NCBI GenBank assembly: GCA_036406615.1
Contig: DASXAQ010000020.1
Span: 16,608 to 80,607 of the forward strand
DNA: 64,000 bases
From: Actinomycetota bacterium
Lineage (GTDB): Bacteria; Actinomycetota; UBA4738
Direction: 5' to 3'
Position numbers and translations under genes: made by a program. Under the pieces are notes generated by a model. The model saw only the letters and a list, made by a program, of their open reading frames with translations, was not told where the DNA came from and did no database searches. Each line of letters opens with the position of its first letter. The stretch's first letter is position 1. Shown here piece after piece: positions 18,469 through 58,893 of this stretch.

Positions 18469-18545
18469 TGGTCGGGACGGCGGGATTTGAACCCGCGACC
18501 TCAGCGTCCCGAACGCTGCGCGCTACCAAGCTGCGCCACGTCCCG
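18469..18545 (-). tRNA. tRNA-Pro (anticodon CGG)
   Basis: Reverse complement CGGGACGTGGCGCAGCTTGGTAGCGCGCAGCGTTCGGGACGCTGAGGTCGCGGGTTCAAATCCCGCCGTCCCGACCA folds as a cloverleaf. 7-bp acceptor stem, anticodon loop TTCGGGA, T-loop GGTTCAAATCC, encoded CCA. Confidence 0.9.
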
Positions 18546-45263: not shown

Positions 45264-47140
45264 CGCGATCCCGCCCCGTCGAACAGGCGCAGCTTGGCGA
45301 TCGCCGACTGCACGGCGCCGGCGGCCGTCTGGCCCAGGCCGCAGATCGACGCGTCGCGCATCACCTGGGCGATCTCGTCGATGAGCGCCAGGTCGGCGCC
45401 GGTGCCGCCGTTCGATCGTCCATCGGCGAGGCGCCGAAGCGCCTCCTCCTGCCGGACGGTGCCGACGCGGCACGGGACGCACTGCCCGCAGGATTCGTCG
45501 CGGAAGAACGCCGCGATCCGCAGCACGATGTCGACCAGGTCGACCGTGTCGTCGAACGCCATCACGACGCCGGATCCCAGCGAGACGCCGGCCGCGCGCG
45601 CGTCCTCGAACGTCAGTCGCAGGTCCAGGTCGTCCGGCGTGACGAACGCACCGGCCGCGCCGCCCAGCAGGATGGCCTGCAGCGCACGGCCTTCGCGCAC
45701 ACCCCCCGCCTGGTCCAGCAGCTCGCGAAGCGTCGTGCCGAACTCGATCTCGTACAGGCCCGGCCGCTCGACGCATCCGCTCAGGCAGAACAGGCGCGTG
45801 CCGGTGGAGTCCGGCGTGCCGATCCGCGCGAACGCCGGTCCCCCGATGCGAAGGATCTCCAGCACGTTCAGCAGCGTCTCGACGTTGTTGATGCCGGTCG
45901 GCTTGCCGAACACGCCGTGCGTGACGGGGAACGGCGGCTTGTTGCGAGGCTCGGCGCGCTTGCCCTCGATCGAGTTGAAGAGCGCCGTCTCCTCGCCGGC
46001 GATGTACGCGCCGGCGCCGCGGCGAAGCTCGATGTCGAACGCGAACCCCTCGCCCATGACGTTGGCACCCAGGAACCCGCGCGCGCGGCATTGCTCGATC
46101 GCGTTTCGCAGCCGCTCGTGCGCCAGGGGATACTCGCCGCGGATGTAGAGGTAGCCGGCCTCGCTGCCGGTGGCGTAGCCGGCGATCGTGAGCGCCTCGA
46201 CGACCGCGAAGGGGTCTGCCTCCATCACGACCCGGTCCTTGAACGTGCCGGGCTCGGACTCGTCCGCGTTGCACACGAAGAAGTGGGGACGGACCGGTTG
46301 CTTCGCGACCGCCTCCCACTTCACGCCGGTGGGGAACGCGGCGCCACCGCGCCCGAGCAGGTTGGCGTCCTTCACCTCGCGGATGACGCCCTCGGGCCCG
46401 AGCGCCACGGCGGTCCGCAGCGCTTCGTACCCGCCGTGCGACCGGTAGGAATCGAGCGAGGTCGGATCCGCCTTGCCGACCCGCGTGAGGAGTGGGCCTG
46501 CCGAGCCGCCGCGCTGCATCGAGGCGGAAAGTCGCGTCTCACTGCGCCAATAGGGAGCGTCGTCTTCCGATGGGTCGCCGAGCCCGGCCTCTCGCACGAG
46601 GTCCGCGATCCGGGCGACGCCCACAGAGACGTCATGGCCGGCAAGCGACCCGTTCTGCACGAGCGCGGCCGGCGCCGCTTCGCACATGCCGAGACACGGG
46701 CTGCGGAGCCACGTCGCGCCGTCCCTGTCGGATCCGGGCGGACCGAACTCGCGTTCCAGGCTGGCGCACAGATCTTCGGCGCCGTTCACCCGGCAGGCGA
46801 TGTCGTCGCACACGTGCACGACGGTCTTCGGCCGCGGCTCGGTCGAGAACAGCGCGTAGAAGCTCGCCACGCCGTACGCCTCGGCCGGCGGGATCGTCAG
46901 GCGCTGCGCGACGTAGCCGAGCGCGCCCTCGCTGATCCATCCCACACGCGACTGGACCGCGTGCAGGACCGGGAGCAGCAGGTGGCGCTGCTCCCGCGCG
47001 GCCCGGCCGCCGCGGGCGATGTGTCCGTCGAGTTCGGTGCGCGAGCCGCCGACCCAACCGCTCTCGGGCTGCCCCAGGATGCCGTCGACGGCCGCGCGCT
47101 CCTCGTCGGTCGCCGACGCGGGCAGGAGGTGCAGGTCCAT
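45260..47140 (-). CDS. fused NuoE-NuoF-like (FdsG/FdsB) NAD(H)/FMN/Fe-S subunit
   Basis: 626 aa. NuoE-like 2Fe-2S part (VCDDIAC...CLGMC). NuoF part GRGGAAFPTGVKW, CNADESEPGTFKDR, ESCGQCVPCRVGT. Confidence 0.9.
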   Translation of the reverse strand: MDLHLLPASATDEERAAVDGILGQPESGWVGGSRTELDGHIARGGRAAREQRHLLLPVLHAVQSRVGWISEGALGYVAQRLTIPPAEAYGVASFYALFSTEPRPKTVVHVCDDIACRVNGAEDLCASLEREFGPPGSDRDGATWLRSPCLGMCEAAPAALVQNGSLAGHDVSVGVARIADLVREAGLGDPSEDDAPYWRSETRLSASMQRGGSAGPLLTRVGKADPTSLDSYRSHGGYEALRTAVALGPEGVIREVKDANLLGRGGAAFPTGVKWEAVAKQPVRPHFFVCNADESEPGTFKDRVVMEADPFAVVEALTIAGYATGSEAGYLYIRGEYPLAHERLRNAIEQCRARGFLGANVMGEGFAFDIELRRGAGAYIAGEETALFNSIEGKRAEPRNKPPFPVTHGVFGKPTGINNVETLLNVLEILRIGGPAFARIGTPDSTGTRLFCLSGCVERPGLYEIEFGTTLRELLDQAGGVREGRALQAILLGGAAGAFVTPDDLDLRLTFEDARAAGVSLGSGVVMAFDDTVDLVDIVLRIAAFFRDESCGQCVPCRVGTVRQEEALRRLADGRSNGGTGADLALIDEIAQVMRDASICGLGQTAAGAVQSAIAKLRLFDGAGSR

Positions 47141-47144
47141 CCGA

Positions 47145-49106
47145 CTAGTCGGCCCCCGCGCCGGCGGGCACCGTCGCGTCCTCGGCCGGCTGCCCGTTGG
47201 CGGCCGGCGCGTCGAGCTTGTCGATGCGAATGGCCGTCGCCTTGAACTCCGCCGTGCCCGATTTCGGGTCGGTCGCGTCGATCGTGAGCAGGTTCGTGGC
47301 GACGTCGTCGGGGAAGTGCAGCGTCATGAACGCCAGGCCGGGCCGCAGTCCCGTGTCGATCCGCACCGGCGCGACGACCGTGCCGCGCCGCGAGGTCACG
47401 CGCACCCGCTCGCCGGGCTGCAGGCCGTGGCGTTCGGCGTCCTCGGGCGACACGTCCAGGGTCTCGCCGCGGCGCATCGGCGAGGAGAACCCACCGCTCT
47501 GCACGCCCGTGTTGTACGAATCGAGCCGGCGCCCCGTCGTGAGCCGGATCGGGTACTCGTCGGTGAGCTCGTCGACCGGGGGGTCGTGGTGCACGACGCT
47601 GATCGGGGCCAGCGGGCCCTGTTCGTCTCCGTCGAGCCACAGCCGGCCATGCAGGAACTGCGCGCCCGGGTCGTTTTCATCGAAGCACGGCCACTGGATG
47701 CCGTTCAGCTCCTCCAGCCGCGCGTAGCTCATCCCGGCGTGCATCGGCGAGAGCGACCGGCATTCGTCCCACACCTGTTCCGCGGTTGGGTCGCCCCAGT
47801 CGTGGCCCAGGCGGCGGGCGATCTCGCCCATGATCCAGATGTCGTCGCGGGCGTTGCCCGGCGGGTCCATCGCCTTGCGCACGCGCTGGACCCGGCGCTC
47901 GCTGGACGTCACGGTGCCCTCCGCCTCGCACCACGTCGCAGATGCCGGCAGGACGACGTCGGCGATCTCCGCCGTCTTGGTCAGGAAGATATCCTGCACG
48001 ACCAGGTGCTCCAGGCCCAGGAGCAGCTTCATCGCGCGGTGCTGGTCGGCCTCCGACTGCGCGGGGTTCTCGCCGACCACGTAGGCGGTCGTGAGCTCGC
48101 CACGCTCCATGGCCTCGAACATCTCCGACAGGTGCCACCCGTAATCGGCACGAATGGGTGTGCCCCAGGCCTTTTCGAACTTGGCCCGGGCTTCGGCGTC
48201 CTTCTCGACGTCCTGGAACCCGGGGAGCTTGTTCGGGATCGCCCCCATGTCCCCGCCGCCCTGAACGTTGTTCTGGCCGCGCAGCGGCTGCAGCCCGCTG
48301 CCGTAGCGGCCGATGTGGCCCGTCAGCAGGGACAGGTTGATCAGCGCGAGCACGTTGTCGACCGCGTTGTGATGCTCGGTGATGCCGAGCGTCCAGCACA
48401 GCTGCGCGCGGTCCGCCCTGGCGAACGCGTGCGCCAGCTCCCGGATGGCCTCGGCCGGCACCCCGGTCGTGCGCTCCGCGTACTCCAGCGTGTAGGGCTG
48501 CACGGCATCGCGGTACTCGTCGAAGCCGGTGGTCGCGTGGTCCACGAACGCCTGGTTCACCAGGCCCGCAGCGATGATCTCGCGCCCGACCGCATTGGCC
48601 AGGGCGACGTCCGAGCCCACGTCCAGGCCGAGCCACAGGTCGGCCCACTGCGCCGACGACGTCCGGCGCGGATCGACCGAGTACAGGCGGGCGCCGTTTC
48701 GGATCCCCTTCAGGACGTGGTGGAAGAAGATCGGGTGCGTCTCGCGCGCGTTCGAGCCCCACAGGACGATCACGTCCGTGCGCTCGACCTCCTCATATGA
48801 GCTGGTGCCGCCCCCGGCACCGAAGACCGTCGCCAGACCGACGACGCTCGGCGCGTGTCAAGTGCGGTTGCAGCTGTCGATGTTGTTGCAGCCGATGACC
48901 GAGCGCGTGAACTTCTGCGCAACGAAGTTCATCTCGTTCGTGGCCTTGGAGCAGCTGAACATGCCGAACGAGAGCGGCCCCTGCTTGTCGACCGCCGTCC
49001 GGAAGCCAGCCGCCGCCCGATCGAGGGCCTCGTCCCACGTTGCCCGGCGGAGCACGCCGGCGTCGCGGACCAGGGGCTCGGTCAGTCGGGTGTAGCGCTG
49101 CGACAT
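47145..49106 (-). CDS. fdhA: formate dehydrogenase catalytic (Mo/W-bisPGD) module with in-frame TGA selenocysteine; lacks its own N-terminal Fe-S domain
   Basis: Track ORFs 48858-49106 and 47145-48773 are in one frame. Read-through gives ...NIDSCNRT-U-HAPSVVGLATVFGAGGGTSSYEEVERTDVIVLWGSNARETHP, the canonical FDH Sec motif. Starts MSQRYTRLTEPLVRD. Confidence 0.85.
48820..48851 (-). promoter_or_regulatory. candidate bacterial SECIS hairpin
   Basis: In the mRNA, 12 nt after UGA: GUCGUC-GGUCU-GGCGAC (48845-48829) above a CCGA/UCGG lower stem. The apical loop contains GU. A second hairpin GGUGCC-GGGGGC-GGCACC lies at 48821-48804. Confidence 0.45.
48858..48860 (-). other. selenocysteine (UGA) codon of fdhA
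   Basis: TGA at the position of the catalytic Sec/Cys in the C-x-R-x-U-H motif. selA and selB are in the same window. Confidence 0.8.
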
Positions 49107-49240: not shown

Positions 49241-49918
49241 ATGGGCTATTGGAGAACCGGCATCGGGCGGTTCTTGACGGTCAGCCCGGGCAAACGCTTC
49301 ATCGAAGGGGAGCCGACCACGGCCTCACGAAGAACGAAATCGGACAAGCAGGGCACGAGCCGCCGATCCTCCGCGATCGCGTGGCTGCTCGCGGCCGCGG
49401 TCCTCTCGGGCCCGGCCGTGCTCGCTGCGCCGGCGGCGAACGCGGCGCCTCCCACCATCAACTGCAGCACCGATCCCGGCAACGGCCAGTGCAACAAGCT
49501 GTCGGCGACGTTCACGTGCGTCTGGAACAACCGCAACGGCACCTACTCGGCCGTCTTCGGCTACAAGAACTCGTCCTCGCACCCGCTGGTGGCCACCGTG
49601 GGGCTGGAGAACATGTTTCTGCCCGCTCCGAACGGCCGTGGGCAGCCGACGACGTTTCCCGCCGGCTCCACCGTGACGAACGCCGTCGTCGTCACGTGGA
49701 ACGGGTCGGCGTTGACGTGGGTCCTGCCCGGCGGCACCGCCACCGGCGGGTTCTGGGCCACTCCGTGCTCGAGCCCGCCCGTGCCGATGGTCGCCGGCGC
49801 GGCGCCGGCGCTCCCGTTCCTGCTGCTGGCCGGCGCGAGCCTGTGGTGGCTCCGCCGCCGCGGCCGGCTCGCATGGGTGCTCGCGGCCGTTCGCGGGTCG
49901 ACGGGGGGCGCCGGGTGA
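49241..49918 (+). CDS. small secreted Cys-containing protein with C-terminal TM helix + Arg cluster (candidate sorting substrate)
   Basis: Signal-like SRRSSAIAWLLAAAVLSGPAVLAAPAANA. About 130-aa domain with 4 Cys. Tail PPVPMVAGAAPALPFLLLAGASLWWLRRRGR. Start uncertain (ATG 49241 or TTG 49273). Confidence 0.65.
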   Translation: MGYWRTGIGRFLTVSPGKRFIEGEPTTASRRTKSDKQGTSRRSSAIAWLLAAAVLSGPAVLAAPAANAAPPTINCSTDPGNGQCNKLSATFTCVWNNRNGTYSAVFGYKNSSSHPLVATVGLENMFLPAPNGRGQPTTFPAGSTVTNAVVVTWNGSALTWVLPGGTATGGFWATPCSSPPVPMVAGAAPALPFLLLAGASLWWLRRRGRLAWVLAAVRGSTGGAG

Positions 49919-50682
49919 ACGTGCTGGCGGTCGGTGCGCATCCCGACGACATCGAGCTCGGCTGCGCCGGCACCTTGGCGCGGCACGTGTGGGCCGGGGA
50001 CACCGTGACGATGCTGGTGATGACCACGGGCGAGCGCGGCCCCCAGGACTCGGTCCCCCGGGTGGACGAACAGGTCGCCGCTGCGCGCCTGATCGGCGCG
50101 AACCTGATCTGGGGCGGGTTCTCGGACGGCGCCGTGCCCACCGGCGGGGACACGGTCGCGTTCATCGACGAGGTCGTGCGCCTCACCAGGGCCGAGATCC
50201 TCTACACGCACGCGCCGAAGGACAGTCACCAGGACCACGTCACGACGGCGCTGTGCTCGCTGGCCGCGGCACGCCGGCTCCCGCGCGTGCTCTGCTACCA
50301 GTCGCCGTCCACGACGTCGTTCGACCCGAACCTGTTCGTCGACATCGACGAGACGTTCGAGCTGAAGCGCCGGTCGCTGAGCGCGCACCAGTCGCAGGTC
50401 CTGCGCTGCGAGATGGTCGACCTGGAGGCCGTCGGGGCGGCCGCGCGGTACTGGGGCCACCGCTCGCGGGTGCGCCACGCGGAGGGGTTCGAGACGCCGC
50501 GCTTCGTCTGGCAGATCGGCGCGGATGCCGACGTCTCACGGACGGCAGGCCGGCCGGTGGAAACGGCCGACCCGCAGCTCGAGCCGGCCGCCGTGGAGGA
50601 GTGGGCACACCTGCCGCAGACGCGCACGCCCGCGCCTCGCTCCCGGGACGAGGCGGCGCGGCTGATGGCGGCCTCGGAGTAG
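49915..50682 (+). CDS. PIG-L/LmbE family deacetylase
   Basis: GTGA overlap with the upstream stop. VGAHPDDIELGCAGT and HQDH motifs. Confidence 0.85.
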   Translation: MNVLAVGAHPDDIELGCAGTLARHVWAGDTVTMLVMTTGERGPQDSVPRVDEQVAAARLIGANLIWGGFSDGAVPTGGDTVAFIDEVVRLTRAEILYTHAPKDSHQDHVTTALCSLAAARRLPRVLCYQSPSTTSFDPNLFVDIDETFELKRRSLSAHQSQVLRCEMVDLEAVGAAARYWGHRSRVRHAEGFETPRFVWQIGADADVSRTAGRPVETADPQLEPAAVEEWAHLPQTRTPAPRSRDEAARLMAASE

Positions 50683-50686
50683 CGCG

Positions 50687-52063
50687 GTGAACGAACCGGC
50701 CCCGCACCCCCGAAGCGTGTCCGCCCCCCGCCTGCCTCGCGGGGCGCCGTGGTCGCTGCTGTACCTGCTCGCGCTGGAGATCGTCGCGGTGAGCCTGCTC
50801 GGCGTGGACCGCGCCGTCACCGCGGCGGCGATCGCGATGAACGTCGTGTTCATCGTGTACCTGTTCCGCCACCTTGCGTTCGCGGCGACGGCTGCCCGCT
50901 ATGCATCGCGGGACCTGCGGCGCCTGCCCGACGTGGATGTCGCGTTCGTGCCGACCGTCACGGTGATGGTCGCCTGCCACAACGAGGCCGTGGTGGCGCG
51001 GAACCTGGTTGCCGGCCTCCGCGGGCTGGACTACCCGGGCGACCGCCTGGACGTGATCCTGGTGGACGACGGGTCGCAGGACGGGACGGGCCCGATGCTG
51101 GAGCACCTGACCGCGACCGACCCACACATCCGCGTGCTGCACCGCCCGCCCGGCGAGGGCGGCGGGAAGTCCGGCGCGCTGAATGCGGCGCTCGAGCGGG
51201 CCACCGGGGAGATCATCGTGGTCTTCGACGCCGACCACGTGCCCTCGCCGGACGTCGTGCGCCGCCTGGTTCGCCATTTCGCGGACGCCCGCGTCTCGGC
51301 CGCCCAGGGGCGCTGCGTCATCACGAACTGGGGCGAGACGCCGCTGGCGCGCGCCATCGCCATCGACTACTTCTCCGGGTACCTGGTCAACGAGTACGGG
51401 CGTCAGGCACTGTTCGAGCTTCCCGCCTACGGCGGCGCCAACTGCGCGGTGCGGGCCTCGACCCTGCGGCGACTGGGAGGCTGGAACCCCGCCACCGTCA
51501 CGGAGGACACCGATCTCACGATGCGGGTGCTGTTGTCCGGTGAGCGCGTTCGCTACGACGTCACCGCCGTGGACACCGAGCAGGCCCCGACGACCATCCG
51601 CTGGTTCATGCGGCAGCGGTACCGCTGGGCGCGCGGCCATCAGCAGGTGTGGCGCGACTACCGGCGGGCCGTGCTCGCGACGCCGCACCTCGGGACGATG
51701 GCGCGGATCGAGACGCTCATGTTCCTGCTGGTCTTCCACGTGCCCGTCGTGTGTGCGGCGACGTTCGTGCTGCTGGCGATGCGCCTGGCCGGCATCGGGC
51801 ATCCGATCACGTTGTTCGAATTGCTGCCGCTGACCGCGCTGTTGTTCGCCGGCCCGTTCTGCGAGCTGGCGGTGGGGCTGGTCGTCGGACGCGCGCCGCG
51901 CTGGACCGCATGGTCCCTGGCGCTGATGCTGCCGGTGTTCATCGTGTCGATCACGGTCACGACGAAGGCATGGATCGACGGCCTCCTCGGCGTCCCGTAC
52001 GCGTGGGTGAAGACGCGCCGGTCGGGCGCTGAGCCGTCCACGCCGGAGCGGGTGGCCGCGTGA
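50687..52063 (+). CDS. processive family 2 glycosyltransferase (polysaccharide synthase)
   Basis: 458 aa. TM helices at both ends. VACHNE, ILVDDGSQDGT, VVFDADH, QRYRWARG (QxxRW). Confidence 0.9.
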   Translation: MNEPAPHPRSVSAPRLPRGAPWSLLYLLALEIVAVSLLGVDRAVTAAAIAMNVVFIVYLFRHLAFAATAARYASRDLRRLPDVDVAFVPTVTVMVACHNEAVVARNLVAGLRGLDYPGDRLDVILVDDGSQDGTGPMLEHLTATDPHIRVLHRPPGEGGGKSGALNAALERATGEIIVVFDADHVPSPDVVRRLVRHFADARVSAAQGRCVITNWGETPLARAIAIDYFSGYLVNEYGRQALFELPAYGGANCAVRASTLRRLGGWNPATVTEDTDLTMRVLLSGERVRYDVTAVDTEQAPTTIRWFMRQRYRWARGHQQVWRDYRRAVLATPHLGTMARIETLMFLLVFHVPVVCAATFVLLAMRLAGIGHPITLFELLPLTALLFAGPFCELAVGLVVGRAPRWTAWSLALMLPVFIVSITVTTKAWIDGLLGVPYAWVKTRRSGAEPSTPERVAA

Positions 52064-52629
52064 GGAGTCCGCGCGTCCGGGTCGTGGTCGTGCTGGTCGC
52101 CTGCGTGGTGGCCGCCATGTCGGGCTTCTTCCTGCTGGTCGACCCGATCCGCCGTCTGGAGATCGCCGCCGCGGTGCTGCTCGCGCGCCCCTTCGGCGGG
52201 CGCGTCTCCGCCGTGGGGGGCGACCTGATCCAGGGCCTGCCGGCCGCGGCGCTTCCCTTTCGCGCCACGGTCACCCCGTTCTGCTCCTCGTTGATCCCGA
52301 TCCTGGCCCTCGGATCGATCTCGATGTTCATCCTGGCCGGCTCGATCGCCCGGCGCGCCGCGGCGTTCGCGATCGCGGCGGCAACGATCCTGTGCTGCAA
52401 CGTCATCCGAATCGCCGCGTCGGTGCTGGTCGGCCTGCGCGCGGGCCCGGCGGGGCTCGCCCTGTTTCACGACTGGGTCGGGACCGGCTTCGCCCTCGCC
52501 TACACGCTCGGCGGCTTCATGCTGATGCTCTACGTGCTGCTGCCGAAGGTCGGCCGCATGCCGGGCGCGTGGCCGGGCGTCCCGGCCGCCGACGCGGCGC
52601 CCGGATCGCCCCGAGGGGGCGGCCGGTGA
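52060..52629 (+). CDS. miniature exosortase/archaeosortase-like membrane protein
   Basis: 189 aa, about 5 TM helices. GDLIQGLPAAALPFRATVTPFCSSL (Cys), CCNVIRIAASV (NxxR), LFHDWVGTG (His), in the order and spacing of the exosortase core. GTGA overlap. Confidence 0.6.
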   Translation: MRSPRVRVVVVLVACVVAAMSGFFLLVDPIRRLEIAAAVLLARPFGGRVSAVGGDLIQGLPAAALPFRATVTPFCSSLIPILALGSISMFILAGSIARRAAAFAIAAATILCCNVIRIAASVLVGLRAGPAGLALFHDWVGTGFALAYTLGGFMLMLYVLLPKVGRMPGAWPGVPAADAAPGSPRGGGR

Positions 52630-53975
52630 GCGCGCCGGCGGCGTTCCTGTTCGCGGCGAACCCGGCCGGCGAGAGCTGGCAGGCCGGCCTGTTCTTCGCG
52701 CTCGCCGGCGCTGCCGTCGTGGTGGCCGCGGTGGTGTGGCGCCTTCGCGCCGACCGGCGGCTGCTTCGCGAGGCGACGGCGAGGCTTCGCGACCCGAACC
52801 CCGCCGCGCGCGTGGAGGCGGTGGACGCCGCGGTGGACCTCGGGCTGTTTCGCACGGGGGGCCTGCTGGTCCGGTTCGCCGCGCGAGAGCGGGACCCGGC
52901 CGTGCTCGACGCGCTGGCCGAGGCCGTGGCGGCGCGGCAGTGGGAGCCGGCCGCCACCCAGGACGTGGTTCGCCTTCGCCGATGGGCGCGGGACCACGCG
53001 GAGGACCGGCGGGCGGCCGCAGCCGGGCCCTCGCAGCGACGTCGGACCGCGCGCGTGCTGATCACCGGCGCCGGCGGGCCGGCCGGCGTGGCCGTGATCC
53101 GAAACCTCGTCCGGCGCGGCGTCCACGTCGTGGCCGTCGACGCCGACGAGCTCGCGGTGGGGTTCGGCCTGGCGTCCGAGGGCTACGTCGTCCCGACCGC
53201 CACCGAGCCCGACTACCTCTCGCGGATCCTCGAGGTCGCGGCCGCGACGCGGGTCGACGCCCTGCTGTGCACGGTGGCCGAGGAGTACCCGGCACTTCGC
53301 GCCCACGCTCTGGACGCGGCGGGCATCCGGTCGATGCTCCCGTCGCCGGAGTCCGTTCGCGTGTGCCTGGACAAGTGGGCGTTCGCGCACGCGATGGAGG
53401 AGGCCGGCCTGCCGGTGCCGGCGACGCGACTGCGCGACCACGTCGACATCCCCAAGCCGTGGATCGTCAAGCCTCGCTTCGGACGCGGGTCGCGAGACGT
53501 GCACGTCGCGCGCACGCTGACCGATCTCCGCCGCGCCTTGCGGTGGACGCCGGACCCCATCGTCCAGGCGCTGGTCGAGGGCCGCGAGTTCACCGTCGAC
53601 GCGCTGGTGGGCCGCGACGGCGCCGTCGCCGGCATGTCGCCCCGCTGGCGCCTGGAGACGAAGGCCGGCATCTCGACGAAGGGACTCACCTTCTCCGATC
53701 CGAAGGTCGTCCGCACGGTCGAGCGCGTGCTCGTCACCGTCGGCCTGGTCGGGCCCGCGAACGTGCAGGGGTTCGTGACGAAGGACGGCGACGTCGTCGT
53801 GCTGGAGGTCAACCCGCGCTTCTCGGGCGGCCTGCCACTGACCCTGCACGCCGGCGCCGACCTGGTCGGCGAGTACGTGCGCGCGATCCTGGGCAAGCCG
53901 ATCCGCCCCGAGCGGCTGGTGGCCCGGCCCGGGGTCGCCATGTCGCGCTACTTCGACGAGGTGTTCGCGGCGTGA
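52626..53975 (+). CDS. ATP-grasp enzyme with N-terminal TM helix and HEAT-like repeat
   Basis: GTGA overlap. TM helix LFFALAGAAVVVAAVVW, then RDPNPAARVEAVDAAVDLG...ERDPAVLDALAEAV, then an ATP-grasp core (KPWIVKPRFGRGSRDV, LEVNPRFSGG). Confidence 0.8.
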   Translation: MSAPAAFLFAANPAGESWQAGLFFALAGAAVVVAAVVWRLRADRRLLREATARLRDPNPAARVEAVDAAVDLGLFRTGGLLVRFAARERDPAVLDALAEAVAARQWEPAATQDVVRLRRWARDHAEDRRAAAAGPSQRRRTARVLITGAGGPAGVAVIRNLVRRGVHVVAVDADELAVGFGLASEGYVVPTATEPDYLSRILEVAAATRVDALLCTVAEEYPALRAHALDAAGIRSMLPSPESVRVCLDKWAFAHAMEEAGLPVPATRLRDHVDIPKPWIVKPRFGRGSRDVHVARTLTDLRRALRWTPDPIVQALVEGREFTVDALVGRDGAVAGMSPRWRLETKAGISTKGLTFSDPKVVRTVERVLVTVGLVGPANVQGFVTKDGDVVVLEVNPRFSGGLPLTLHAGADLVGEYVRAILGKPIRPERLVARPGVAMSRYFDEVFAA

Positions 53976-55138
53976 GGATCACGGTGCCGGTCGGGACCCG
54001 TCCGGAGATCATCAAGCTGGCGGGCGTGGTGGGCGCGCTGCGGGCCGCGGGTCACACCGTTCGATGCATCGCCACCGGCCAGCACGACGATCCCCGGATG
54101 GCCGGGGACATCTTCGACGAGCTCGGGTGCGCCCCTGACGCGGTCTGGTCGCTCGAGGGCGACGAGGGCAGGCGCGTCGCGACCCTGCTGGGCGACGCGT
54201 TCGATGAAATGGCAACCCACGCGCCAGACGCGGTCCTGGTCCTGGGCGACACCTACACGGCCCCGCTGCTGGCACTGGCGGCCCGGCGCCACGGCGTCGG
54301 CGTCGTGCACCTGGAGGCCGGGCTCCGTTCGTTCAACGAACGGTCGATGGAGGAGACGAACCGCCGCCTGATGGCCGTCCTGGCCACGCTGCACCTGGCG
54401 CCGAGCGAGCTGGCCGCGTCGTTCCTGCGCGCCGAAGGTGTCGCGCCGGATCGCATCCGGGTGGTGGGCAACCCGATCGTGGACGCGATGGTTCGAAGCG
54501 GCGTCGAGCGCGTTCCGGTGGAGCGCCGGTCGGGGTCGCTGCTCACCGCCCACCGCGCCACCAACGTCGACGACCCCGCCAGGCTTCGGGAGATCGTGCG
54601 GCTGGCGGCGTCCCTCGGAGCCGAAGCCGGCCCCGTCACGTTCCCGTTGCACCCGCGCACGCGCTTGCGCCTGCACCGGGCCGGGTTGCTCGATCGCCTC
54701 GCGAGCGTTCCCGGCGTCGCCCTCTGCGATCCGCTCGGCTACGGCGACATGCTCGCGCGGGTCTCGGCGAGCCGCCTCGTGGTCACGGACTCGGGCGGGT
54801 TGCAGGAGGAGGCGTCGTACTTCGGCATCCCGTGCGTGGTCCTGCGGTCGACCACGCCGCGATGGGAGCTGGTGCAGGCGGGCGCCGCGGAGCTCGCCGG
54901 CATGGACGCGGACCGCGCGCTGCGCGCCGTTCGCCGGCTGAGCGCTTCCGCGGAACAGCGACGGATCGACGGGCTCGCATGCCCGTACGGCGACGGCCAC
55001 ACCGCCGCCCGCGTCGTGGATGCGCTGGCGGATCCGCTCGTCGCCGGACTGATCCGGCCCGCCGAGCCGGCGCTGGGCGCGGCGCCGTTCGTGGCCTGGA
55101 CGGTCGACGAGCAGCTGCCGGCCGAGCTCGCATCGTGA
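53972..55138 (+). CDS. wecB: UDP-N-acetylglucosamine 2-epimerase (non-hydrolysing)
   Basis: GTGA overlap. VGTRPEIIKLAGV, LGDTYTA, HLEAGLRSFN, VTDSGGLQEEA. Confidence 0.9.
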   Translation: MRITVPVGTRPEIIKLAGVVGALRAAGHTVRCIATGQHDDPRMAGDIFDELGCAPDAVWSLEGDEGRRVATLLGDAFDEMATHAPDAVLVLGDTYTAPLLALAARRHGVGVVHLEAGLRSFNERSMEETNRRLMAVLATLHLAPSELAASFLRAEGVAPDRIRVVGNPIVDAMVRSGVERVPVERRSGSLLTAHRATNVDDPARLREIVRLAASLGAEAGPVTFPLHPRTRLRLHRAGLLDRLASVPGVALCDPLGYGDMLARVSASRLVVTDSGGLQEEASYFGIPCVVLRSTTPRWELVQAGAAELAGMDADRALRAVRRLSASAEQRRIDGLACPYGDGHTAARVVDALADPLVAGLIRPAEPALGAAPFVAWTVDEQLPAELAS

Positions 55139-55869
55139 CGTCGGCGCGCCGCGTCGAGGCGGTCACCGTCGACCTGGACGACACGCTCTACGAGCAACGC
55201 CACTTCCTGGTCGGCGCCTGGGCCGCGGTCGCGGACGCCGGCGCCGCGCGCGGGCTCGCGCGGGGGCCGTTGCACCGGGCCCTGCTGGACGTGGCTTCGG
55301 AGGGATCCGACCGCGGGCGAATCGTGGACCGGGCGCTCGAGCGCATCGGCGCGGAGCCGGCGCACGCGGCGCCGCTGGTCGACGCCTTTCGACGGTTCGA
55401 ACCGGACCTGCTGGCCGTGTATCCGGGCGCGCGGGCGGCGCTGGCCGCGCTGCGAGCGCGCGTGCCCGTTGCATGCATCACCGACGGCGACCCCGGGATC
55501 CAACGGGCCAAGCTGCGCGCGCTCGCCCTGGACGACGCGTTCGACGCGCTCGTGATCTCCGACGAGATCGGGCGCGACGTTCGAAAGCCGCACCCCCTGC
55601 CCTTCCTGCGCGCGGTGCAAGCGCTGGGCGTGGCGGTGGAGCGAACGGTCCACGTGGGGGACCGGCCGGCCAAGGACGTTGCCGGGGCGGCGGCGGCGGG
55701 GCTGCTGGCCGTCCGCGTGACGACCGGCGAGTACGGGGACGATCCCATTCCGCCGGGATGCCCGGCTCCGCTGGCGACGGTGGCAAGCGTCCGGGAGGCG
55801 TTCGAGCTGATCGCGACGCTGGCGACGACCGCGGTCGACCCGTCGTCGCATGCCGTCGCCCGGCGCTGA
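55135..55869 (+). CDS. HAD-family hydrolase
   Basis: GTGA overlap. VTVDLDDTLY (DxDxT), ITDG, KPHP, VGDRPAKDV. Confidence 0.8.
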   Translation: MTSARRVEAVTVDLDDTLYEQRHFLVGAWAAVADAGAARGLARGPLHRALLDVASEGSDRGRIVDRALERIGAEPAHAAPLVDAFRRFEPDLLAVYPGARAALAALRARVPVACITDGDPGIQRAKLRALALDDAFDALVISDEIGRDVRKPHPLPFLRAVQALGVAVERTVHVGDRPAKDVAGAAAAGLLAVRVTTGEYGDDPIPPGCPAPLATVASVREAFELIATLATTAVDPSSHAVARR

Positions 55870-55882
55870 CGCGCGCTTCGGC

Positions 55883-56767
55883 TCAGTCCGTCAGGTCGAT
55901 CCGCTCGGGGCGCGTGTACACGTTGAACGACGGCCCCCGGAGGAACCCGACCACGGTCATGCCCAGCCGTTCGGCGGTCTCGACCGCCAGGCTGGACGGC
56001 GCCGACACGGCGGCCACGATCGGGATGCCCGCCATCGCGGCCTTCTGCACGATCTCGAAGCTCACCCGGCCGGACACGTGCAGGACCCGTTCGGACAGCG
56101 GCAGCGACCCGTCGAGCAGCGCCCACCCCACCAGCTTGTCCACGGCGTTGTGCCGTCCCACGTCCTCGCGCAGCGCCAGCATCCGGCCGTCCACGTCGAA
56201 CAGCCCGGCCGCGTGCAGGCCGCCCGTCTCCTCGAACACGCGCTGTGCCTGCCGCAGCGCGTCGGGAAGACCAATGAGGGTCGAGCGCGCGATCGCCGGG
56301 CCCGGCGGCAGCGACGAGCAGGCCACCTCCACCTGGTCGATCGACGCCTTGCCGCACACGCCGCAGCTCGAGGTCGCATAGAAGTTGCGCGTGACGTCAC
56401 CCTGATCGAACGCGCGGGACGTTCGAACGGTGACGACGTTGTACCGCTGCTCCGGCACGTCCGTGTCGCAGTAGCGCACCGACTCGATCTCGTCGCGGTC
56501 GTGGATCAACCCCTCCGTCCACAGGAAGCCGGCGGCCAGCTCGAAGTCGTGGCCGGGCGTGCGCATCGTGACGGCGACGCTCACCGCGTCCTGCCCGGGG
56601 CCGCGGACCTGGATCTCCATTGGTTCCTCGGTGGCCAGCCGGTCCGGGCGCTCCGCGGGCAGGCCGTCGCGCACCGCCGTCACCCGCGCGGCGCTCACGC
56701 TTCGTCGCGGCTCGGGCGAGTCGCCCGCGCCGCCGGTGTGGATCGAAGAACGGGCCATCGATCCCAT
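55883..56767 (-). CDS. fdhD: formate dehydrogenase accessory sulfurtransferase FdhD
   Basis: MRTPGHDFELAAGFLWTEGLI, SSCGVCGKASID, GRHNAVDKLVG. Start ATG 56767 or 56758. Confidence 0.85.
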   Translation of the reverse strand: MGSMARSSIHTGGAGDSPEPRRSVSAARVTAVRDGLPAERPDRLATEEPMEIQVRGPGQDAVSVAVTMRTPGHDFELAAGFLWTEGLIHDRDEIESVRYCDTDVPEQRYNVVTVRTSRAFDQGDVTRNFYATSSCGVCGKASIDQVEVACSSLPPGPAIARSTLIGLPDALRQAQRVFEETGGLHAAGLFDVDGRMLALREDVGRHNAVDKLVGWALLDGSLPLSERVLHVSGRVSFEIVQKAAMAGIPIVAAVSAPSSLAVETAERLGMTVVGFLRGPSFNVYTRPERIDLTD

Positions 56768-56792
56768 TATCGGCGCGAGTATCGTGGGCCGC

Positions 56793-57374
56793 ATGGACGC
56801 GTCGCTCACGGGGGTCCTGCTGGCCGGCGGCCGGAGCGCACGCATGGGCGTGGACAAGGCGGCGATGGCGTTCGACGGCGAGCCCCTGGCGGTCCGGGTC
56901 GCGCGGCGGCTGGGGGAGTGCTGCGATCGCGTGCTCGTCGCGTCCGGCGACGGACGGCGCCTGGCCTGGCTGGGCCTCGAGCAGGTGGCCGACCCCATCC
57001 CGGACGCGGGACCGCTGGCGGGCATCGTCGCCGGGCTCGAACACGCGCCGGGGCCGGCCGCGGCGGTCGCGGCCGTGGACATGCCGTTCGCGAGCCCCGG
57101 CGTGCTCCGCCTGCTGGCCTCGCTGCGCGGCGACGCGGACGCCGTGGTGCCGGTCACCGACGACGGCCTCGAGCCGCTGCACGCCGTCTACGCGACGTCG
57201 GCCGCGGCCGCGTTGCGGTCGGAGCTCGAGTCGGGGGTTCGCGCCGTCCGCGAGGCGATCGAGGGGCTTCGCGTTCGCCTCGTGGAACGCCTCGAGTGGT
57301 CGCCGGCCGATCCCTCCGGGGCGTTTGCCCGCAACCTGAACCGGCCGGCGGACCTACCCCGCGGATCCGGCTGA
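56793..57374 (+). CDS. mobA: molybdenum cofactor guanylyltransferase MobA
   Basis: MDASLTGVLLAGGRSARMGVDKA, AVDMPF. TATCGT lies 7 nt upstream of the ATG. Confidence 0.85.
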   Translation: MDASLTGVLLAGGRSARMGVDKAAMAFDGEPLAVRVARRLGECCDRVLVASGDGRRLAWLGLEQVADPIPDAGPLAGIVAGLEHAPGPAAAVAAVDMPFASPGVLRLLASLRGDADAVVPVTDDGLEPLHAVYATSAAAALRSELESGVRAVREAIEGLRVRLVERLEWSPADPSGAFARNLNRPADLPRGSG

Positions 57375-57380
57375 ACCGCG

Positions 57381-57797
57381 TCAGCCGGCCATCGCGTCGG
57401 CCAGCCGGCGCGCGAGCGTGGCCAGCATCGACACGGCGATCGACGGCTCCCGTTCCAGCAACGTCGCGAAGTCTCCGCGCCCGACCGCAAGACAGCGAAC
57501 GGGGGTGACCGCCTGCACGCGCGCGGTGCGGGCGCCGTCGGTCAGCAGCGCCAACTCGCCGAAGAAGTCCCCGGGGCCGCCGGCGATGGGTTCGCGACCG
57601 GGCGTCGTCACCGAGACCTCGCCGTCCTCCACGACGAACAGGCCGCTGCCGGCCATCCCCGGCTGGATCAGCACCGAGCCGGCGGGCGCGTCGAACTCGG
57701 TGGCGGCGTCCAGGATGCGCCGAAGCGAGTCCTCGGGAACGCCGTGGAACAGCGGGATCTCGGACAGGCGCTTCAGCCGGTCGGCGTCGTCGGGCAT
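57381..57797 (-). CDS. stand-alone cyclic-nucleotide-binding domain protein
   Basis: 138 aa. IPLFHGVPEDSL..., GDFFGELALL, RTARVQA. Confidence 0.8.
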   Translation of the reverse strand: MPDDADRLKRLSEIPLFHGVPEDSLRRILDAATEFDAPAGSVLIQPGMAGSGLFVVEDGEVSVTTPGREPIAGGPGDFFGELALLTDGARTARVQAVTPVRCLAVGRGDFATLLEREPSIAVSMLATLARRLADAMAG

Positions 57798-57848
57798 GCG
57801 GGCTCACTCATACCACAGCGGTCCCACGGCAAGCTCGGGACTCCGTCG

Positions 57849-58115
57849 TCAGCCGGCATCGTCGCCGCCGGGGGGTTCCGAGTCGCTGAGCAATTCCCGC
57901 GCCGCGTCCTGCGCGGCCCGGATCGCGCCGGCCCGGTCGTCGCCGGACCGACCCGCCAGGACGCCGGCCAGGAACGCGGACAGCGGCGCGAGCCGCCGAT
58001 CGTCCGTTCCGCGCGCGATGTCGCGCGCGAGGCCGAGCAGGGCGTCGGCCTGCTCGCGCGTCACCGGATCCTGTCCCAGCCTGGCCGCGAACGCGTCGAT
58101 CCACTCGTTCACCAC
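57849..58115 (-). CDS. small DUF6457-like protein (commonly next to mobA in actinobacteria)
   Basis: GTG at 58115 after GGAGG. VVNEWIDAFAARLGQDP...LLGLARDIARG...APLSAFLAGV. Family name from memory. Confidence 0.6.
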   Translation of the reverse strand: MVNEWIDAFAARLGQDPVTREQADALLGLARDIARGTDDRRLAPLSAFLAGVLAGRSGDDRAGAIRAAQDAARELLSDSEPPGGDDAG

Positions 58116-58268
58116 TGCACCTCCACCCCTTTTGATGAATCGCCTCACGCGAGGGTAGCCTTGCCGCGCGGAGCCGTGCGGCTCCGACGCGAACCGATCG
58201 CGGGGAGGGAGCGACACGACGCGCGACGCGCAGCGGCCGAACGCGGGCTCCCTGGGTATGGTGGGTTC

Positions 58269-58886
58269 GTGAGCGTCCGCCCAGGGACCCCCACCCTCGC
58301 GGGCCGCGGCGTGGCGGCGGTCCCCGTCCCCCGCCGGCTCCCGCTGCTGACGGTCGGCATCGTCATCTTCCTCGGTTCGGAGCTGATGTTCTTCGCGTCG
58401 CTGTTCGCGATGTACTTCACGCTTCGAGCCGAACACCCCAGCCTGTGGCCGCCCCCGGGCACCGACCTCGCGGTCCTGCGCCCGGCCCTGTTCACCGCGG
58501 TGCTGGTCGGATCGAGCTTCACCATGCAGATGGCCGACCGCCGGATCAAGCAGGGCAACCCGATGGCGATGCGCCGGTGGATCTGGCTCACCATGGCGAT
58601 GGGCCTGATCTTCCTGTTCGGGCAGGCCTGGGACTACCACGACCTGACCGGGCAGGGCGTGACGATGGCCTCCAGTGCCTACGGGTCGGCGTTCTACACG
58701 ATGACCGGCTTCCACGCGCTGCACGTGACGGCCGGGCTGATCGTGATGCTGGTCGTGCTCGGGCGCGCCGCGACCGGCGCGTACGACCACGGGGAGCATG
58801 CGGCCGTCGAGGCGGCGACGTACTACTGGCACTTCGTGGACATCGTGTGGGTGGCGCTGTTCCTCACGCTGTTCGTGGTTCGGTGA
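58269..58886 (+). CDS. ctaE: cytochrome c oxidase subunit III
   Basis: GSELMFFASLFAMYF, GFHALHVTAG, YWHFVDIVW. Confidence 0.9.
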   Translation: MSVRPGTPTLAGRGVAAVPVPRRLPLLTVGIVIFLGSELMFFASLFAMYFTLRAEHPSLWPPPGTDLAVLRPALFTAVLVGSSFTMQMADRRIKQGNPMAMRRWIWLTMAMGLIFLFGQAWDYHDLTGQGVTMASSAYGSAFYTMTGFHALHVTAGLIVMLVVLGRAATGAYDHGEHAAVEAATYYWHFVDIVWVALFLTLFVVR

Positions 58887-58893
58887 GCCGGGC

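What the first reader, a model, noticed from the sequence alone, without database searches (positions are those of the whole stretch)
49241..55869. Seven-gene translationally coupled EPS operon with an exosortase-like protein and its candidate substrate, in an actinobacterial background
The operon reads, in order:
1. secreted 4-Cys protein ending in a TM helix + WLRRRGR;
2. PIG-L deacetylase;
3. processive GT2 synthase (QRYRWARG);
4. 189-aa exosortase-like protein;
5. TM+HEAT+ATP-grasp enzyme;
6. UDP-GlcNAc 2-epimerase;
7. HAD hydrolase.

Five junctions are 4-nt GTGA overlaps and the sixth is a 4-nt gap, so this looks like a single expression unit. Exosortase/PEP-CTERM systems are known mainly from Gram-negative EPS producers, and archaeosortases from archaea. 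A compact sortase-substrate-polysaccharide module beside WhiB/AdnAB/QcrCAB genes is not a system I recognise. The chemistry implied (HexNAc/ManNAc polymer, N-deacetylation, possible ATP-grasp re-acylation of the freed amine) together with protein sorting suggests a coupled glycan-protein surface structure.
Basis: partly seen in the sequence, partly recalled or inferred. Interest (0 to 1): 0.8.

Follow-up and report, generated by a model that had tools for sequence, protein, structure and literature searches.

The report
Actinobacterial exosortase, substrate and glycan operon
A tightly packed seven-gene operon in a high-GC actinobacterium pairs a miniature, so far unnamed type of exosortase (a membrane protein-sorting enzyme) with its likely target protein and a sugar-polymer pathway, which could show what such enzymes attach their targets to.

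Summary
Seven same-strand genes (49241-55869) are joined by five GTGA overlaps and one 4-nt gap, and all seven family assignments were confirmed.

Gene 4 (189 aa) passes the curated exosortase/archaeosortase signature (TIGR04178, 35.7 bits against a cutoff of 23). It falls far below every named Xrt/Art subfamily model. Cys75, Asn114-x-x-Arg117 and His137 are invariant in 52 aligned relatives.

The order GT2, exosortase, HEAT-like, ATP-grasp, WecB, HAD is colinear in all 84 related loci. These come mostly from soil and peat metagenomes, and the few named ones are Acidimicrobiia. In several relatives the exosortase domain is fused to the ATP-grasp enzyme.

Sixteen of 26 loci with enough upstream DNA, counting the window itself, encode secreted proteins directly upstream. 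These fall into at least two families with no detectable similarity. What they share is a C-terminal signal: usually Pro-Val-Pro, then a membrane helix, then an Arg cluster. Gene 1 carries it.

This is best read as a dedicated exosortase sorting system tied to glycan synthesis. It works like the Firmicute XrtG system but belongs to no described subfamily. The ATP-grasp link is unusual. The acceptor chemistry remains inference.

The parts
49241..49918 (+). g1: secreted 225-aa protein (class A domain, 4 Cys) with a C-terminal sorting-type tail; candidate exosortase substrate. TTG 49274 is an alternative start.
   Evidence: Homologues lie directly upstream of the same operon in other loci. No Pfam or NCBIfam domain.
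49373..49444 (+). g1 signal-peptide hydrophobic core, ending in ANA (residues 45-68)
   Evidence: Read from the sequence. Aligned homologues have N-terminal signal peptides at the same place.
49778..49786 (+). g1 signature motif Pro180-Val-Pro182, four residues after the invariant Cys176
   Evidence: P[VL]P occurs in 17 of 30 listed tails, (S/T)PAxSTLAGWGP in 9. C176 and P180 are invariant in class A.
49787..49852 (+). g1 C-terminal transmembrane helix (residues 183-204)
   Evidence: conserved position in all tails.
49853..49867 (+). g1 basic cluster RRRGR (residues 205-209), followed by 16 further residues to the stop
49915..50682 (+). g2: PIG-L/LmbE-family de-N-acetylase. Accessory: present in 12 of 26 loci with upstream sequence.
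   Evidence: PF02585 74 bits. BshB1 90.6 bits against a cutoff of 182.5, not met. Distribution.
50687..52063 (+). g3: membrane-embedded GT2 synthase-type glycosyltransferase with QRYRW (51614-51628)
   Evidence: PF00535, PF13641, PF13632. Best named model PgaC/IcaA, 126 bits against a cutoff of 422. Adjacent to the exosortase gene wherever upstream sequence is present.
52060..52629 (+). g4: 189-aa four-helix exosortase/archaeosortase-family protein of an unnamed subfamily. Cys75 at 52282-52284, Asn114-x-x-Arg117 at 52399-52410, His137 at 52468-52470.
   Evidence: TIGR04178 35.7 bits against a cutoff of 23. XrtS 27.5/145 and XrtP 18.6/200, not met. Invariant residues. AF2 pLDDT 90.8.
52626..53975 (+). 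g5: N-terminal TM anchor (52683-52739), acidic HEAT-like helical region, and a cytoplasmic ATP-grasp ligase (from about 53040)
   Evidence: PF02655, PF15632, PF21360; PRK12767-type 186 bits against a cutoff of 390. Split into two genes in L001, L003, L084. Fused to the exosortase domain in P0161, P0203 and P0219; P0186, P0235 and P0239 combine a strong exosortase-profile match with ATP-grasp domains.
53972..55138 (+). g6: non-hydrolysing UDP-GlcNAc 2-epimerase (WecB)
   Evidence: TIGR00236 249 bits against a cutoff of 210; PF02350 277 bits.
55135..55869 (+). g7: HAD-IA family phosphatase-like hydrolase (DLDDT at 55171-55185)
   Evidence: PF00702 92 bits. TIGR02253 104 bits against a cutoff of 169.75, not met.

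Best explanation
The operon encodes a dedicated exosortase-type protein-sorting system coupled to synthesis of a HexNAc-containing glycan or glycolipid.

Shown by computation:
- g4 belongs to the exosortase/archaeosortase superfamily. It is a minimal four-helix form.
- Its invariant Cys75, Arg117 and His137 are predicted to sit near the outer face of the membrane.
- g1 and its counterparts in other loci are Sec-type secreted proteins.
- They share only a tripartite C-terminal tail: a Pro-Val-Pro-type signature, a TM helix, then an Arg cluster.
- These proteins are encoded immediately upstream of the operon.

Inferred:
- After export, g1 is held in the membrane by its C-terminal helix.
- The exosortase cleaves at or near Pro-Val-Pro through a Cys acyl-enzyme. 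It then passes the new C-terminus to a nucleophile instead of water.
- The other genes build that acceptor on the cytoplasmic face.
- WecB supplies UDP-ManNAc and the GT2 synthase polymerises and/or exports the glycan.
- The membrane-tethered ATP-grasp ligase, and PIG-L where present, install or expose an amino group.
- HAD removes a phosphate.

The expected result is a protein covalently anchored to a cell-surface glycan or glycolipid.
For: - Family membership: TIGR04178 passes its cutoff for g4 and for 9 of 10 relatives sampled across the E-value range.
- Catalytic residues: C75, R99, N114, R117 and H137 are invariant in 52 sequences. The C...N-x-x-R...H pattern is present in 123 of 123 close homologues. 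Residues matching the sortase catalytic triad are reported as conserved in archaeosortases (PMC6098224).
- Synteny: GT2-xrt-HEAT-grasp-WecB-HAD is colinear in 84 of 84 loci, broken only by contig ends. Flanking genes are not conserved across clades, so the unit is the operon itself.
- Substrate link: ORFs with the tail were found on the + strand directly upstream of GT2 or PIG-L and nowhere else in the loci or the 64-kb window, apart from one false positive, a PIG-L C-terminus. Sixteen of 26 loci with at least 900 nt upstream have one or two.
- Shared signal, unrelated carriers: class A and class B proteins share no detectable similarity and have no Pfam domain, yet carry the same tail. This fits Haft's criteria for a sorting signal in a dedicated system.
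- Motif type: P-x-P resembles PEP. It also resembles PIP-CTERM, which I cite from memory.
- Enzyme coupling: natural fusions of the exosortase domain to a cytoplasmic linker and ATP-grasp tie the ligase to the sorting enzyme. They also fix the topology: exosortase C-terminus inside, ligase cytoplasmic.
- Precedent: genes syntenic with archaeosortase artA (pssA, pssD) are required for ArtA-dependent lipid anchoring and substrate processing (PMC7157517).
Against: - No biochemical evidence exists for this subfamily, and the acceptor of any bacterial exosortase is unknown.
- Ten of 26 loci with upstream sequence show no tail-bearing ORF. This includes a whole peat clade searched to about 9 kb on each side where the contigs allowed. 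The exosortase is therefore more tightly linked to the glycan enzymes than to an adjacent substrate.
- PIG-L is absent from 14 of 26 loci, so a deacetylated amine cannot be the universal acceptor.
- The signature motif is not uniform: Pro-Val-Pro in most tails, (S/T)PAxSTLAGWGP in one subclade, none in L010.
- Pfam Exosortase_EpsH is below its gathering score for the window protein itself (20.2 against 25.7).
- The AF2 model of g1 is poor (pLDDT 55), so the substrate's fold and function are unknown.
- The ATP-grasp enzyme is cytoplasmic while the predicted active site faces outward, so its role is indirect at best.
Confidence: 0.6

Rival explanations
1. Glycan machinery only. g4 is a non-proteolytic membrane subunit of the GT2/ATP-grasp glycan synthase complex, acting as a scaffold or lipid/glycan handler. 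g1 is simply a C-terminally membrane-anchored surface protein that is not cleaved.
For: The exosortase gene is always next to the GT2 and ATP-grasp genes, and is sometimes fused to ATP-grasp. Ten of 26 loci lack an adjacent tail-bearing ORF. EpsH-type proteins were first noticed as EPS-locus components (PMC1569441).
Against: A Cys/Arg/His set is invariant across the family, including the clade without adjacent substrates. The signature motif just outside the TM helix is conserved across protein families with no detectable similarity. A plain membrane anchor would not need that.
Confidence: 0.2
2. The sorting system is real but the acceptor is a membrane lipid, as for archaeosortase A. The glycan genes are co-regulated neighbours that make a separate exopolysaccharide matrix, as proposed for PEP-CTERM/XrtA EPS loci.
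For: ArtA substrates are lipid-anchored (PMC6098224, PMC7157517). XrtA systems sit in EPS loci with no demonstrated covalent protein-glycan link.
Against: The exosortase-ATP-grasp fusions and the invariant six-gene core point to tighter coupling than co-regulation. No lipid-synthesis gene is conserved in the unit.
Confidence: 0.12
3. The g1-type tails are variant LPXTG-like signals processed by a housekeeping sortase, and the exosortase homologue has another role.
For: The tails have the same tripartite architecture as sortase signals. One relative's tail (L039b, NPVPITGAG) marginally passes the LPXTG_anchor model, 16.6 bits against 15.9. Some tails read PVPxTG.
Against: The window tail and most others give no LPXTG hit even at E<=10. 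Most lack a T-G at the right spacing. No other gene family is conserved around the unit across clades. The tails co-locate with an exosortase homologue.
Confidence: 0.05

Closest known systems
XrtG system of Firmicutes (exosortase G + Firmicu-CTERM protein + XrtG-associated GT2 glycosyltransferases)
   Same: It is a Gram-positive, dedicated, operon-encoded set: a small exosortase, one adjacent substrate with a tripartite C-terminal signal, and GT2 glycosyltransferase(s) (PMC12854382).
   Different: g4 gives no XrtG hit at E<=0.01, and g3 scores 54.5 bits against a cutoff of 364 on the XrtG-associated GT model. The tails do not hit a Firmicu-CTERM model. The phylum differs. HEAT/ATP-grasp, WecB, HAD and PIG-L genes are not listed among the XrtG components in the one source read.
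PEP-CTERM/XrtA (EpsH) systems of Gram-negative EPS producers
   Same: Same superfamily signature domain. The substrate motif is P-x-P type, followed by a TM helix and a basic cluster. The system is genomically associated with polysaccharide biosynthesis (PMC1569441, PMC3237569).
   Different: XrtA is described as having eight predicted TM helices and usually many dispersed substrates per genome. Here there are about four helices in 170-190 aa and one or two adjacent substrates. No XrtA or PEP-CTERM model hit. There is no outer membrane.
Small exosortases XrtS and XrtP (NCBIfam NF033767, NF012139) and the XrtP-associated glycosyltransferase (NF053846)
   Same: These are the nearest named models. 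They are of similar size (155-159 profile positions), and XrtP also has a dedicated ~440-residue GT2 partner model.
   Different: Scores are far below the cutoffs: 27.5/145, 18.6/200, 78.7/520. The same holds for ten relatives. I could not retrieve any description of these systems.
Archaeosortase A / PGF-CTERM with PssA/PssD
   Same: This is the experimentally supported member of the superfamily: C-terminal cleavage, with syntenic pssA/pssD genes required for lipid anchoring and processing. It is the model for 'neighbouring genes make the acceptor'.
   Different: It is archaeal, anchoring is to a lipid, the motif is PGF, and no archaeosortase subfamily model was passed (ArtF was the only one to appear, 17.8 bits against 150 for one relative).
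Sortase A / LPXTG with lipid II cross-bridge acceptor; eukaryotic GPI transamidase with PIG-L-dependent GlcN-PI anchor (from general knowledge)
   Same: Works like these: a Cys transpeptidase removes a C-terminal hydrophobic signal and joins the protein to an amine on a cytoplasmically pre-built glycoconjugate. A PIG-L-family deacetylase is part of GPI anchor synthesis.
   Different: There is no homology to sortases or to Gpi8. The analogy is functional only and untested.
PNAG (PgaC/IcaA) and Nod-factor (NodC-NodB-NodA) pathways
   Same: g3's best named hits are PgaC/IcaA, NodC and CelA-type processive GT2s with the QxxRW motif. The logic 'HexNAc chain, then de-N-acetylation, then re-acylation' exists in Nod-factor synthesis (general knowledge).
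   Different: All equivalog cutoffs are missed (126/422, 88/550). The deacetylase here is PIG-L type rather than CE4. The putative acylating enzyme is an ATP-grasp ligase. WecB implies ManNAc.

Membership tests
Exosortase/archaeosortase superfamily | Match to the curated signature domain (TIGR04178) above its cutoff | tested here: met
   35.7 bits against a cutoff of 23 for g4. Nine of 10 sampled relatives pass.
Exosortase/archaeosortase superfamily | Match to Pfam Exosortase_EpsH (PF09721) above its gathering score | tested here: inconclusive
   The window protein scores 20.2 against 25.7. Relative P0161 scores 27.9 and most homologues carry a precomputed PF09721 hit.
Exosortase/archaeosortase superfamily | Polytopic membrane protein with conserved Cys, Arg and His (sortase-like catalytic residues) | tested here: met
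   C75, R117 (in N-x-x-R) and H137 are invariant in 52 sequences. The pattern is present in 123 of 123 close homologues. The helical membrane model has pLDDT 90.8. Mapping onto the experimentally tested ArtA residues was not done.
Exosortase/archaeosortase superfamily | Cognate proteins with N-terminal signal peptide and tripartite C-terminal signal (motif, TM helix, basic cluster) | tested here: met
   Two carrier families share no detectable similarity.
Exosortase/archaeosortase superfamily | C-terminal cleavage or transpeptidation of the substrate | not testable with these tools
   Needs genetics and mass spectrometry.
XrtA / PEP-CTERM | XrtA-type model hit for the enzyme and PEP-CTERM (TIGR02595) hit for the tail | tested here: not met
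   No such hits at E<=0.01 for g4 or at E<=10 for ten tails.
XrtG system (Firmicutes) | XrtG model, Firmicu-CTERM tail and XrtG-associated GT2 model above their cutoffs | tested here: not met
   No XrtG hit for g4. TIGR03111 scores 54.5 against 363.95 for g3. No Firmicu-CTERM hit.
XrtS / XrtP / XrtR / XrtM / XrtX / XrtH / ArtF | Subfamily model above its curated cutoff | tested here: not met
   The best score is XrtS, 27.5 against 145 for g4. Relatives reach at most 39.1 against 145.
Sortase / LPXTG substrates | LPXTG-type anchor domain in the tail | tested here: not met
   The window tail gives no hit. Only L039b is marginal, 16.6 against 15.9.
PNAG synthase PgaC/IcaA | Equivalog model TIGR03937 above its cutoff | tested here: not met
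   126.2 bits against 422.3. The GT2 fold and QxxRW motif are present.
Non-hydrolysing UDP-GlcNAc 2-epimerase (WecB) | Equivalog model TIGR00236 above its cutoff | tested here: met
   249.3 bits against 210.15.
PIG-L/LmbE deacetylases | Pfam PF02585 above its gathering score; specific equivalogs (BshB1, MshB, Mca) | tested here: met
   PF02585 scores 74.3 against 28.2. The equivalogs are not met: BshB1 90.6 against 182.5. It is a family member of unknown specificity.

The most novel reading that the evidence does not exclude
The mini-exosortase acts as a transpeptidase that joins the new C-terminus of the Pro-Val-Pro-tailed protein to an amino group on the glycan or glycolipid made by the same operon. 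That amino group would be installed or exposed by the ATP-grasp ligase, or by PIG-L where present. The outcome would be a bacterial, GPI-anchor-like or sortase/lipid-II-like protein-glycan conjugate. The natural exosortase-ATP-grasp fusions would then mark the enzyme that builds the long-sought exosortase acceptor.
Probability: 0.25. Interest if true: 0.85.

Novelty: new variant of a known kind. Interest (0 to 1): 0.62.

Why it matters
Exosortases are widespread, but what bacterial exosortases attach their substrates to is still unknown. Only the archaeal ArtA has experimental support.

This subfamily offers an unusually clean test system:
- a four-helix enzyme;
- one or two adjacent substrates;
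- a fixed set of five cytoplasmic or membrane enzymes;
- a direct fusion of the sorting enzyme to an ATP-grasp ligase in some lineages.

That narrows the search for the acceptor to the product of a handful of genes.

It also extends dedicated exosortase systems to Actinomycetota. The members are mostly uncultured soil and peat lineages, including Acidimicrobiia. It defines a new C-terminal sorting signal (Pro-Val-Pro type) that current NCBIfam models do not recognise. Adding the enzyme and signal models would improve annotation of several hundred protein clusters now labelled only 'exosortase/archaeosortase family protein' or 'hypothetical'.

Tried and rejected
- A single-sequence homology search with g4 found only 6 proteins. 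The profile search was needed.
- My first synteny pass used an out-of-frame ATP-grasp fragment and gave spuriously weak hits. This was corrected.
- My first tail filter was too strict and missed g1 itself. It was replaced.
- Rfam found no riboswitch or other RNA near the operon, only an SRP RNA and one tRNA elsewhere.
- The promoter/terminator scan was no better than shuffles.
- No PDB sequence relative or fold relative exists for g4. TatC and V-ATPase c-ring matches at E>1 are noise.
- The AF2 model of g1 was too poor (pLDDT 55) to search for folds.
- Pfam found nothing in class A, class B or L036-type substrates.
- PDB relatives of the ATP-grasp domain are uninformative: 2pn1, named only 'carbamoylphosphate synthase large subunit' with no function given, then CarB.
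- The pseudomurein paper did not clarify the CPS-like ATP-grasp function.
- Cluster look-up gave no taxonomy.
- The key Haft 2012 paper is not held.
- Flanking genes such as gcvP, NUDIX, GNAT and Lnt are shared only within one clade, so I rejected them as parts of the system.

Full report
OBSERVATION

The window is uniformly GC-rich, about 70-75%. Between 49241 and 55869 there are seven + strand ORFs. Five junctions are GTGA start/stop overlaps: g1/g2 at 49915-49918, g3/g4 at 52060-52063, g4/g5 at 52626-52629, g5/g6 at 53972-53975, and g6/g7 at 55135-55138. The sixth junction (g2/g3) is a 4-nt gap.

The N-termini implied by these starts match those of homologues:
- g2 begins VNVLAVGAHPDD.
- g6 begins VRITVPVGTRPEIIKL.
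- g7 carries DLDDT at residues 13-17.
- g4 has a short basic N-terminus before its first helix, like its relatives.

- g1 continues 16 residues beyond WLRRRGR.
- The g1 start is ambiguous. The only canonical options are ATG 49241 and TTG 49274.
- The HEAT assignment in g5 is weak. There is no Pfam hit in the window protein and only weak HEAT_2 hits in homologues.

WHAT THE GENES ARE

Profile searches confirm every assignment:
- g2: PIG-L.
- g3: a membrane-embedded GT2 with QRYRW. Its best named hits are PgaC/IcaA, NodC and CelA, all below the equivalog cutoffs.
- g5: an ATP-grasp ligase of the 'CPS-like' PRK12767 / ATP-grasp_3 / ATPgrasp_Ter type, with a PylC-like N-domain.
- g6: WecB, above its equivalog cutoff.
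- g7: a HAD-IA hydrolase.

g4 is the key gene. It passes the curated exosortase/archaeosortase signature TIGR04178 (35.7 bits against a cutoff of 23). It falls far short of every named subfamily: XrtS 27.5/145 and XrtP 18.6/200. XrtA, XrtG and Art models do not appear at all.

g1 has no Pfam domain, and its only NCBIfam hit (15.9 bits against a cutoff of 206.8) is far below threshold.

THE EXOSORTASE-LIKE FAMILY

A single-sequence search found only six relatives. A profile search found at least 170 clusters at 90% identity. Sources name them, at best, 'exosortase/archaeosortase family protein'. The few organism labels read Acidimicrobiia, and the one genome locus is an 'uncultured Actinomycetes' MAG.

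An exhaustive profile search of 1.84 billion representatives gave 381 hits at E<=1e-3 and 222 at E<=1e-10. Ten of these, spread across the score range, again passed only the generic signature. As of NCBIfam 20.0 this is therefore an unnamed subfamily.

In 52 aligned members C75, R99, N114, R117 and H137 are invariant. The pattern C...N-x-x-R...H is present in 123 of 123 close homologues and 124 of 149 representatives; I did not examine why the other 25 lack it.

The AF2 model is confident (pLDDT 90.8). It shows a long first helix, a small three-stranded sheet and further helices. No solved structure resembles it by sequence or by fold.

By the positive-inside rule (my reading of the sequence), the N- and C-termini are cytoplasmic. 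Cys75, Arg117 and His137 lie toward the outer face.

CONSERVED GENE ORDER

tblastn with the window proteins was run against 83 related loci and the window's own operon region, 84 sequences in all. Every one showed the same order: [substrate] [PIG-L] GT2, exosortase, HEAT-like, ATP-grasp, WecB, HAD. The only differences come from contig ends.

Flanking genes are not shared across clades. The gcvP, NUDIX, GNAT and Lnt neighbours are confined to one Acidimicrobiia-like clade. In the window the operon instead lies between a formate-dehydrogenase cluster and fdhD/mobA-like genes. The conserved unit is therefore the operon itself.

HEAT-like and ATP-grasp are one gene here and in L002. They are two genes in L001, L003 and L084.

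Several representatives join the exosortase domain to the ATP-grasp enzyme in one polypeptide. Pfam finds both domains in P0161, P0203 and P0219. P0239, P0186 and P0235 combine a strong match to the exosortase profile with ATP-grasp domains. The four sequences I read (P0161, P0203, P0219, P0239) have a cytoplasmic linker with no intervening TM helix, then the HEAT-like region and ATP-grasp. This gene fusion is strong evidence that the ligase and the sorting enzyme act together. It also fixes the ligase on the cytoplasmic side.

THE CANDIDATE SUBSTRATES

I searched all ORFs of at least 80 aa on both strands of all loci and of the whole window. The target was a C-terminal hydrophobic helix followed by a basic cluster and preceded by a Pro-containing motif.

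Twenty ORFs qualified. Nineteen lie on the operon strand directly upstream of GT2 or PIG-L. The twentieth is a false positive, a PIG-L C-terminus. In the 64-kb window only g1 qualifies.

Of 26 loci with at least 900 nt upstream of GT2, counting the window itself, 16 have one or two such genes.

The mature parts fall into at least two families:
- Class A is g1-like, with the conserved pattern EC...GY.N...GQPT.F...W.L...C...P.
- Class B is the L003/L055/L057/L062 type.

Their similarity is not significant (E = 0.69), and neither has a Pfam domain. L036 may represent a third type.

What these proteins share is the tail: [T/N/P]-P-V-P-[V/I]-x3-G, about 20 hydrophobic residues, then an Arg-rich cluster. 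A P[VL]P motif occurs in 17 of 30 listed tails. One subclade has (S/T)PAxSTLAGWGP instead, in 9 tails.

In g1 the motif is P180-V-P182 (49778-49786). The helix is 49787-49852 and RRRGR is 49853-49867.

No NCBIfam sorting-domain model recognises these tails. The one exception is a marginal LPXTG_anchor hit for a single relative.

This pattern matches Haft's stated criteria for a dedicated sorting system: a shared tail on otherwise unrelated secreted proteins, encoded next to the candidate enzyme. The P-x-P signature resembles PEP-CTERM.

MECHANISM

Shown:
- family membership of g4;
- invariant Cys, Arg and His;
- a strict operon;
- fusion of the exosortase domain with ATP-grasp;
- positional linkage and a shared tail for the substrates.

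Inferred:
- g1 is exported and held by its C-terminal helix.
- The exosortase cleaves near Pro-Val-Pro through a Cys75 thioester.
- It transfers the protein to a nucleophile.

The precedents are ArtA and sortase. ArtA shows C-terminal cleavage plus lipid anchoring that depends on the syntenic pssA and pssD genes. Sortase uses lipid II (general knowledge).

By analogy I propose that the operon's cytoplasmic enzymes build the acceptor:
- WecB makes UDP-ManNAc.
- The GT2 synthase polymerises and/or exports.
- The membrane-tethered ATP-grasp ligase, and PIG-L where present, create an amino-bearing residue.
- HAD removes a phosphate.

This last layer is speculative. PIG-L is missing from 14 of 26 loci, and the ligase's substrates cannot be read from its sequence.

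The acidic HEAT-like region could bind the Arg-rich cytoplasmic end of the substrate. That is pure conjecture.

RIVALS

1. g4 is a non-proteolytic partner of the synthase and g1 is a plain tail-anchored protein. In favour, the exosortase is more constantly linked to the glycan genes than to a substrate gene. A peat clade has an AhpD-like gene upstream and no tail-bearing ORF in the flanking DNA held, up to about 9 kb on each side. Against it, that clade keeps the Cys/Arg/His set, and a plain anchor would not need a conserved motif.
2. The acceptor is a lipid and the glycan is a separate matrix.
3. A housekeeping sortase processes the tails. This is weakly suggested by PVPxTG in two tails and by the marginal LPXTG hit. 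Most tails do not fit.

COMPARISON AND NOVELTY

The closest described system is the Firmicute XrtG set: Firmicu-CTERM protein, XrtG and two glycosyltransferases. The present system works like it but fails its models. It adds the ATP-grasp/HEAT, WecB and HAD core and has a different signal.

XrtS and XrtP are the nearest models by score, but they are not met.

Full-text searches found no paper linking exosortases to Acidimicrobiia or Actinomycetota. Haft's 2023 survey does not mention these taxa. The library is incomplete, however, and Haft 2012 is not held.

I rate this a new variant of a known kind: a new exosortase subfamily with a new cognate signal and an unusual enzymatic partner.

VERDICT

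The acceptor chemistry remains open.

Interest is 0.62. This is not a new category of system. It is a compact and tractable one that could answer what bacterial exosortases attach their substrates to.

Noticed in passing
window 44328-49106 (- strand) and 55883-57374: The operon sits between a formate-dehydrogenase-like gene set on the minus strand (NuoF/NuoE-like and molybdopterin subunit ORFs ending at 49106) and, downstream, an fdhD-like gene (minus strand, from 55883) and a mobA-like gene (56559-57374, LAGGRSARMG motif). These functions belong together. The cassette may therefore have inserted into an fdh locus, and relatives carry it in other genomic contexts. The assignments come from reading the translations and were not profile-tested.
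   Followed up: partly
window 49304-49321: A strong Shine-Dalgarno-like GAAGGGGAG (49304-49312) lies inside the annotated 5' end of g1. No canonical in-frame start follows it; the nearest in-frame codon at normal spacing is ACG at 49319. A start there would give a more typical signal peptide than ATG 49241 or TTG 49274.
   Followed up: no
P0161, P0203, P0219, P0239, P0186, P0235 (representatives): These are single polypeptides with an exosortase domain, then a conserved cytoplasmic linker (ERAEQDRFGRHTARRP..WARPGLGYR in the four sequences read), a HEAT-like region and ATP-grasp. P0186 (1118 aa) appears to carry two nucleotide-binding/ATP-grasp modules. Their taxonomy and gene context could not be looked up.
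   Followed up: partly
L058, L061, L063, L064, L068, L069, L075 (peat metagenomes): This clade has the full GT2-to-HAD core and intact Cys/Arg/His. An AhpD/carboxymuconolactone-decarboxylase-like gene sits directly upstream of GT2, and no tail-bearing ORF appears in the flanking DNA held (up to about 9 kb each side). Any substrates must be elsewhere.
   Followed up: partly
L039 2649-3940; L055 3-1434: These loci carry tandem pairs of substrate genes: two class A in L039 and two class B in L055. Class A genes precede PIG-L, whereas class B genes sit between PIG-L and GT2.
   Followed up: no
L022 604-1296, L027 1-672, L029 6822-7586, L039 2649-3455: Several class A substrates have long Thr/Pro-rich low-complexity linkers between the signal peptide and the conserved domain. 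Such linkers are typical of O-glycosylated surface proteins.
   Followed up: no
L086 1-9640: A block of about 25 short minus-strand genes, including an NlpC/P60 protein, lies immediately upstream of the operon in one 1.68-Mb contig. It looks prophage-like.
   Followed up: no
window 6733-6998 (+) and 18472-18545 (-): A bacterial large SRP RNA (182 bits) and one tRNA are the only Rfam matches at gathering threshold in the window.
   Followed up: no
window 57744-59673: ctaE-like (cytochrome oxidase subunit III) and qcrC-like (di-haem cytochrome c, two CxxCH) ORFs lie just downstream. This arrangement is typical of Actinomycetota and consistent with the 'actinobacterial background'. It was read from the translations only.
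   Followed up: no
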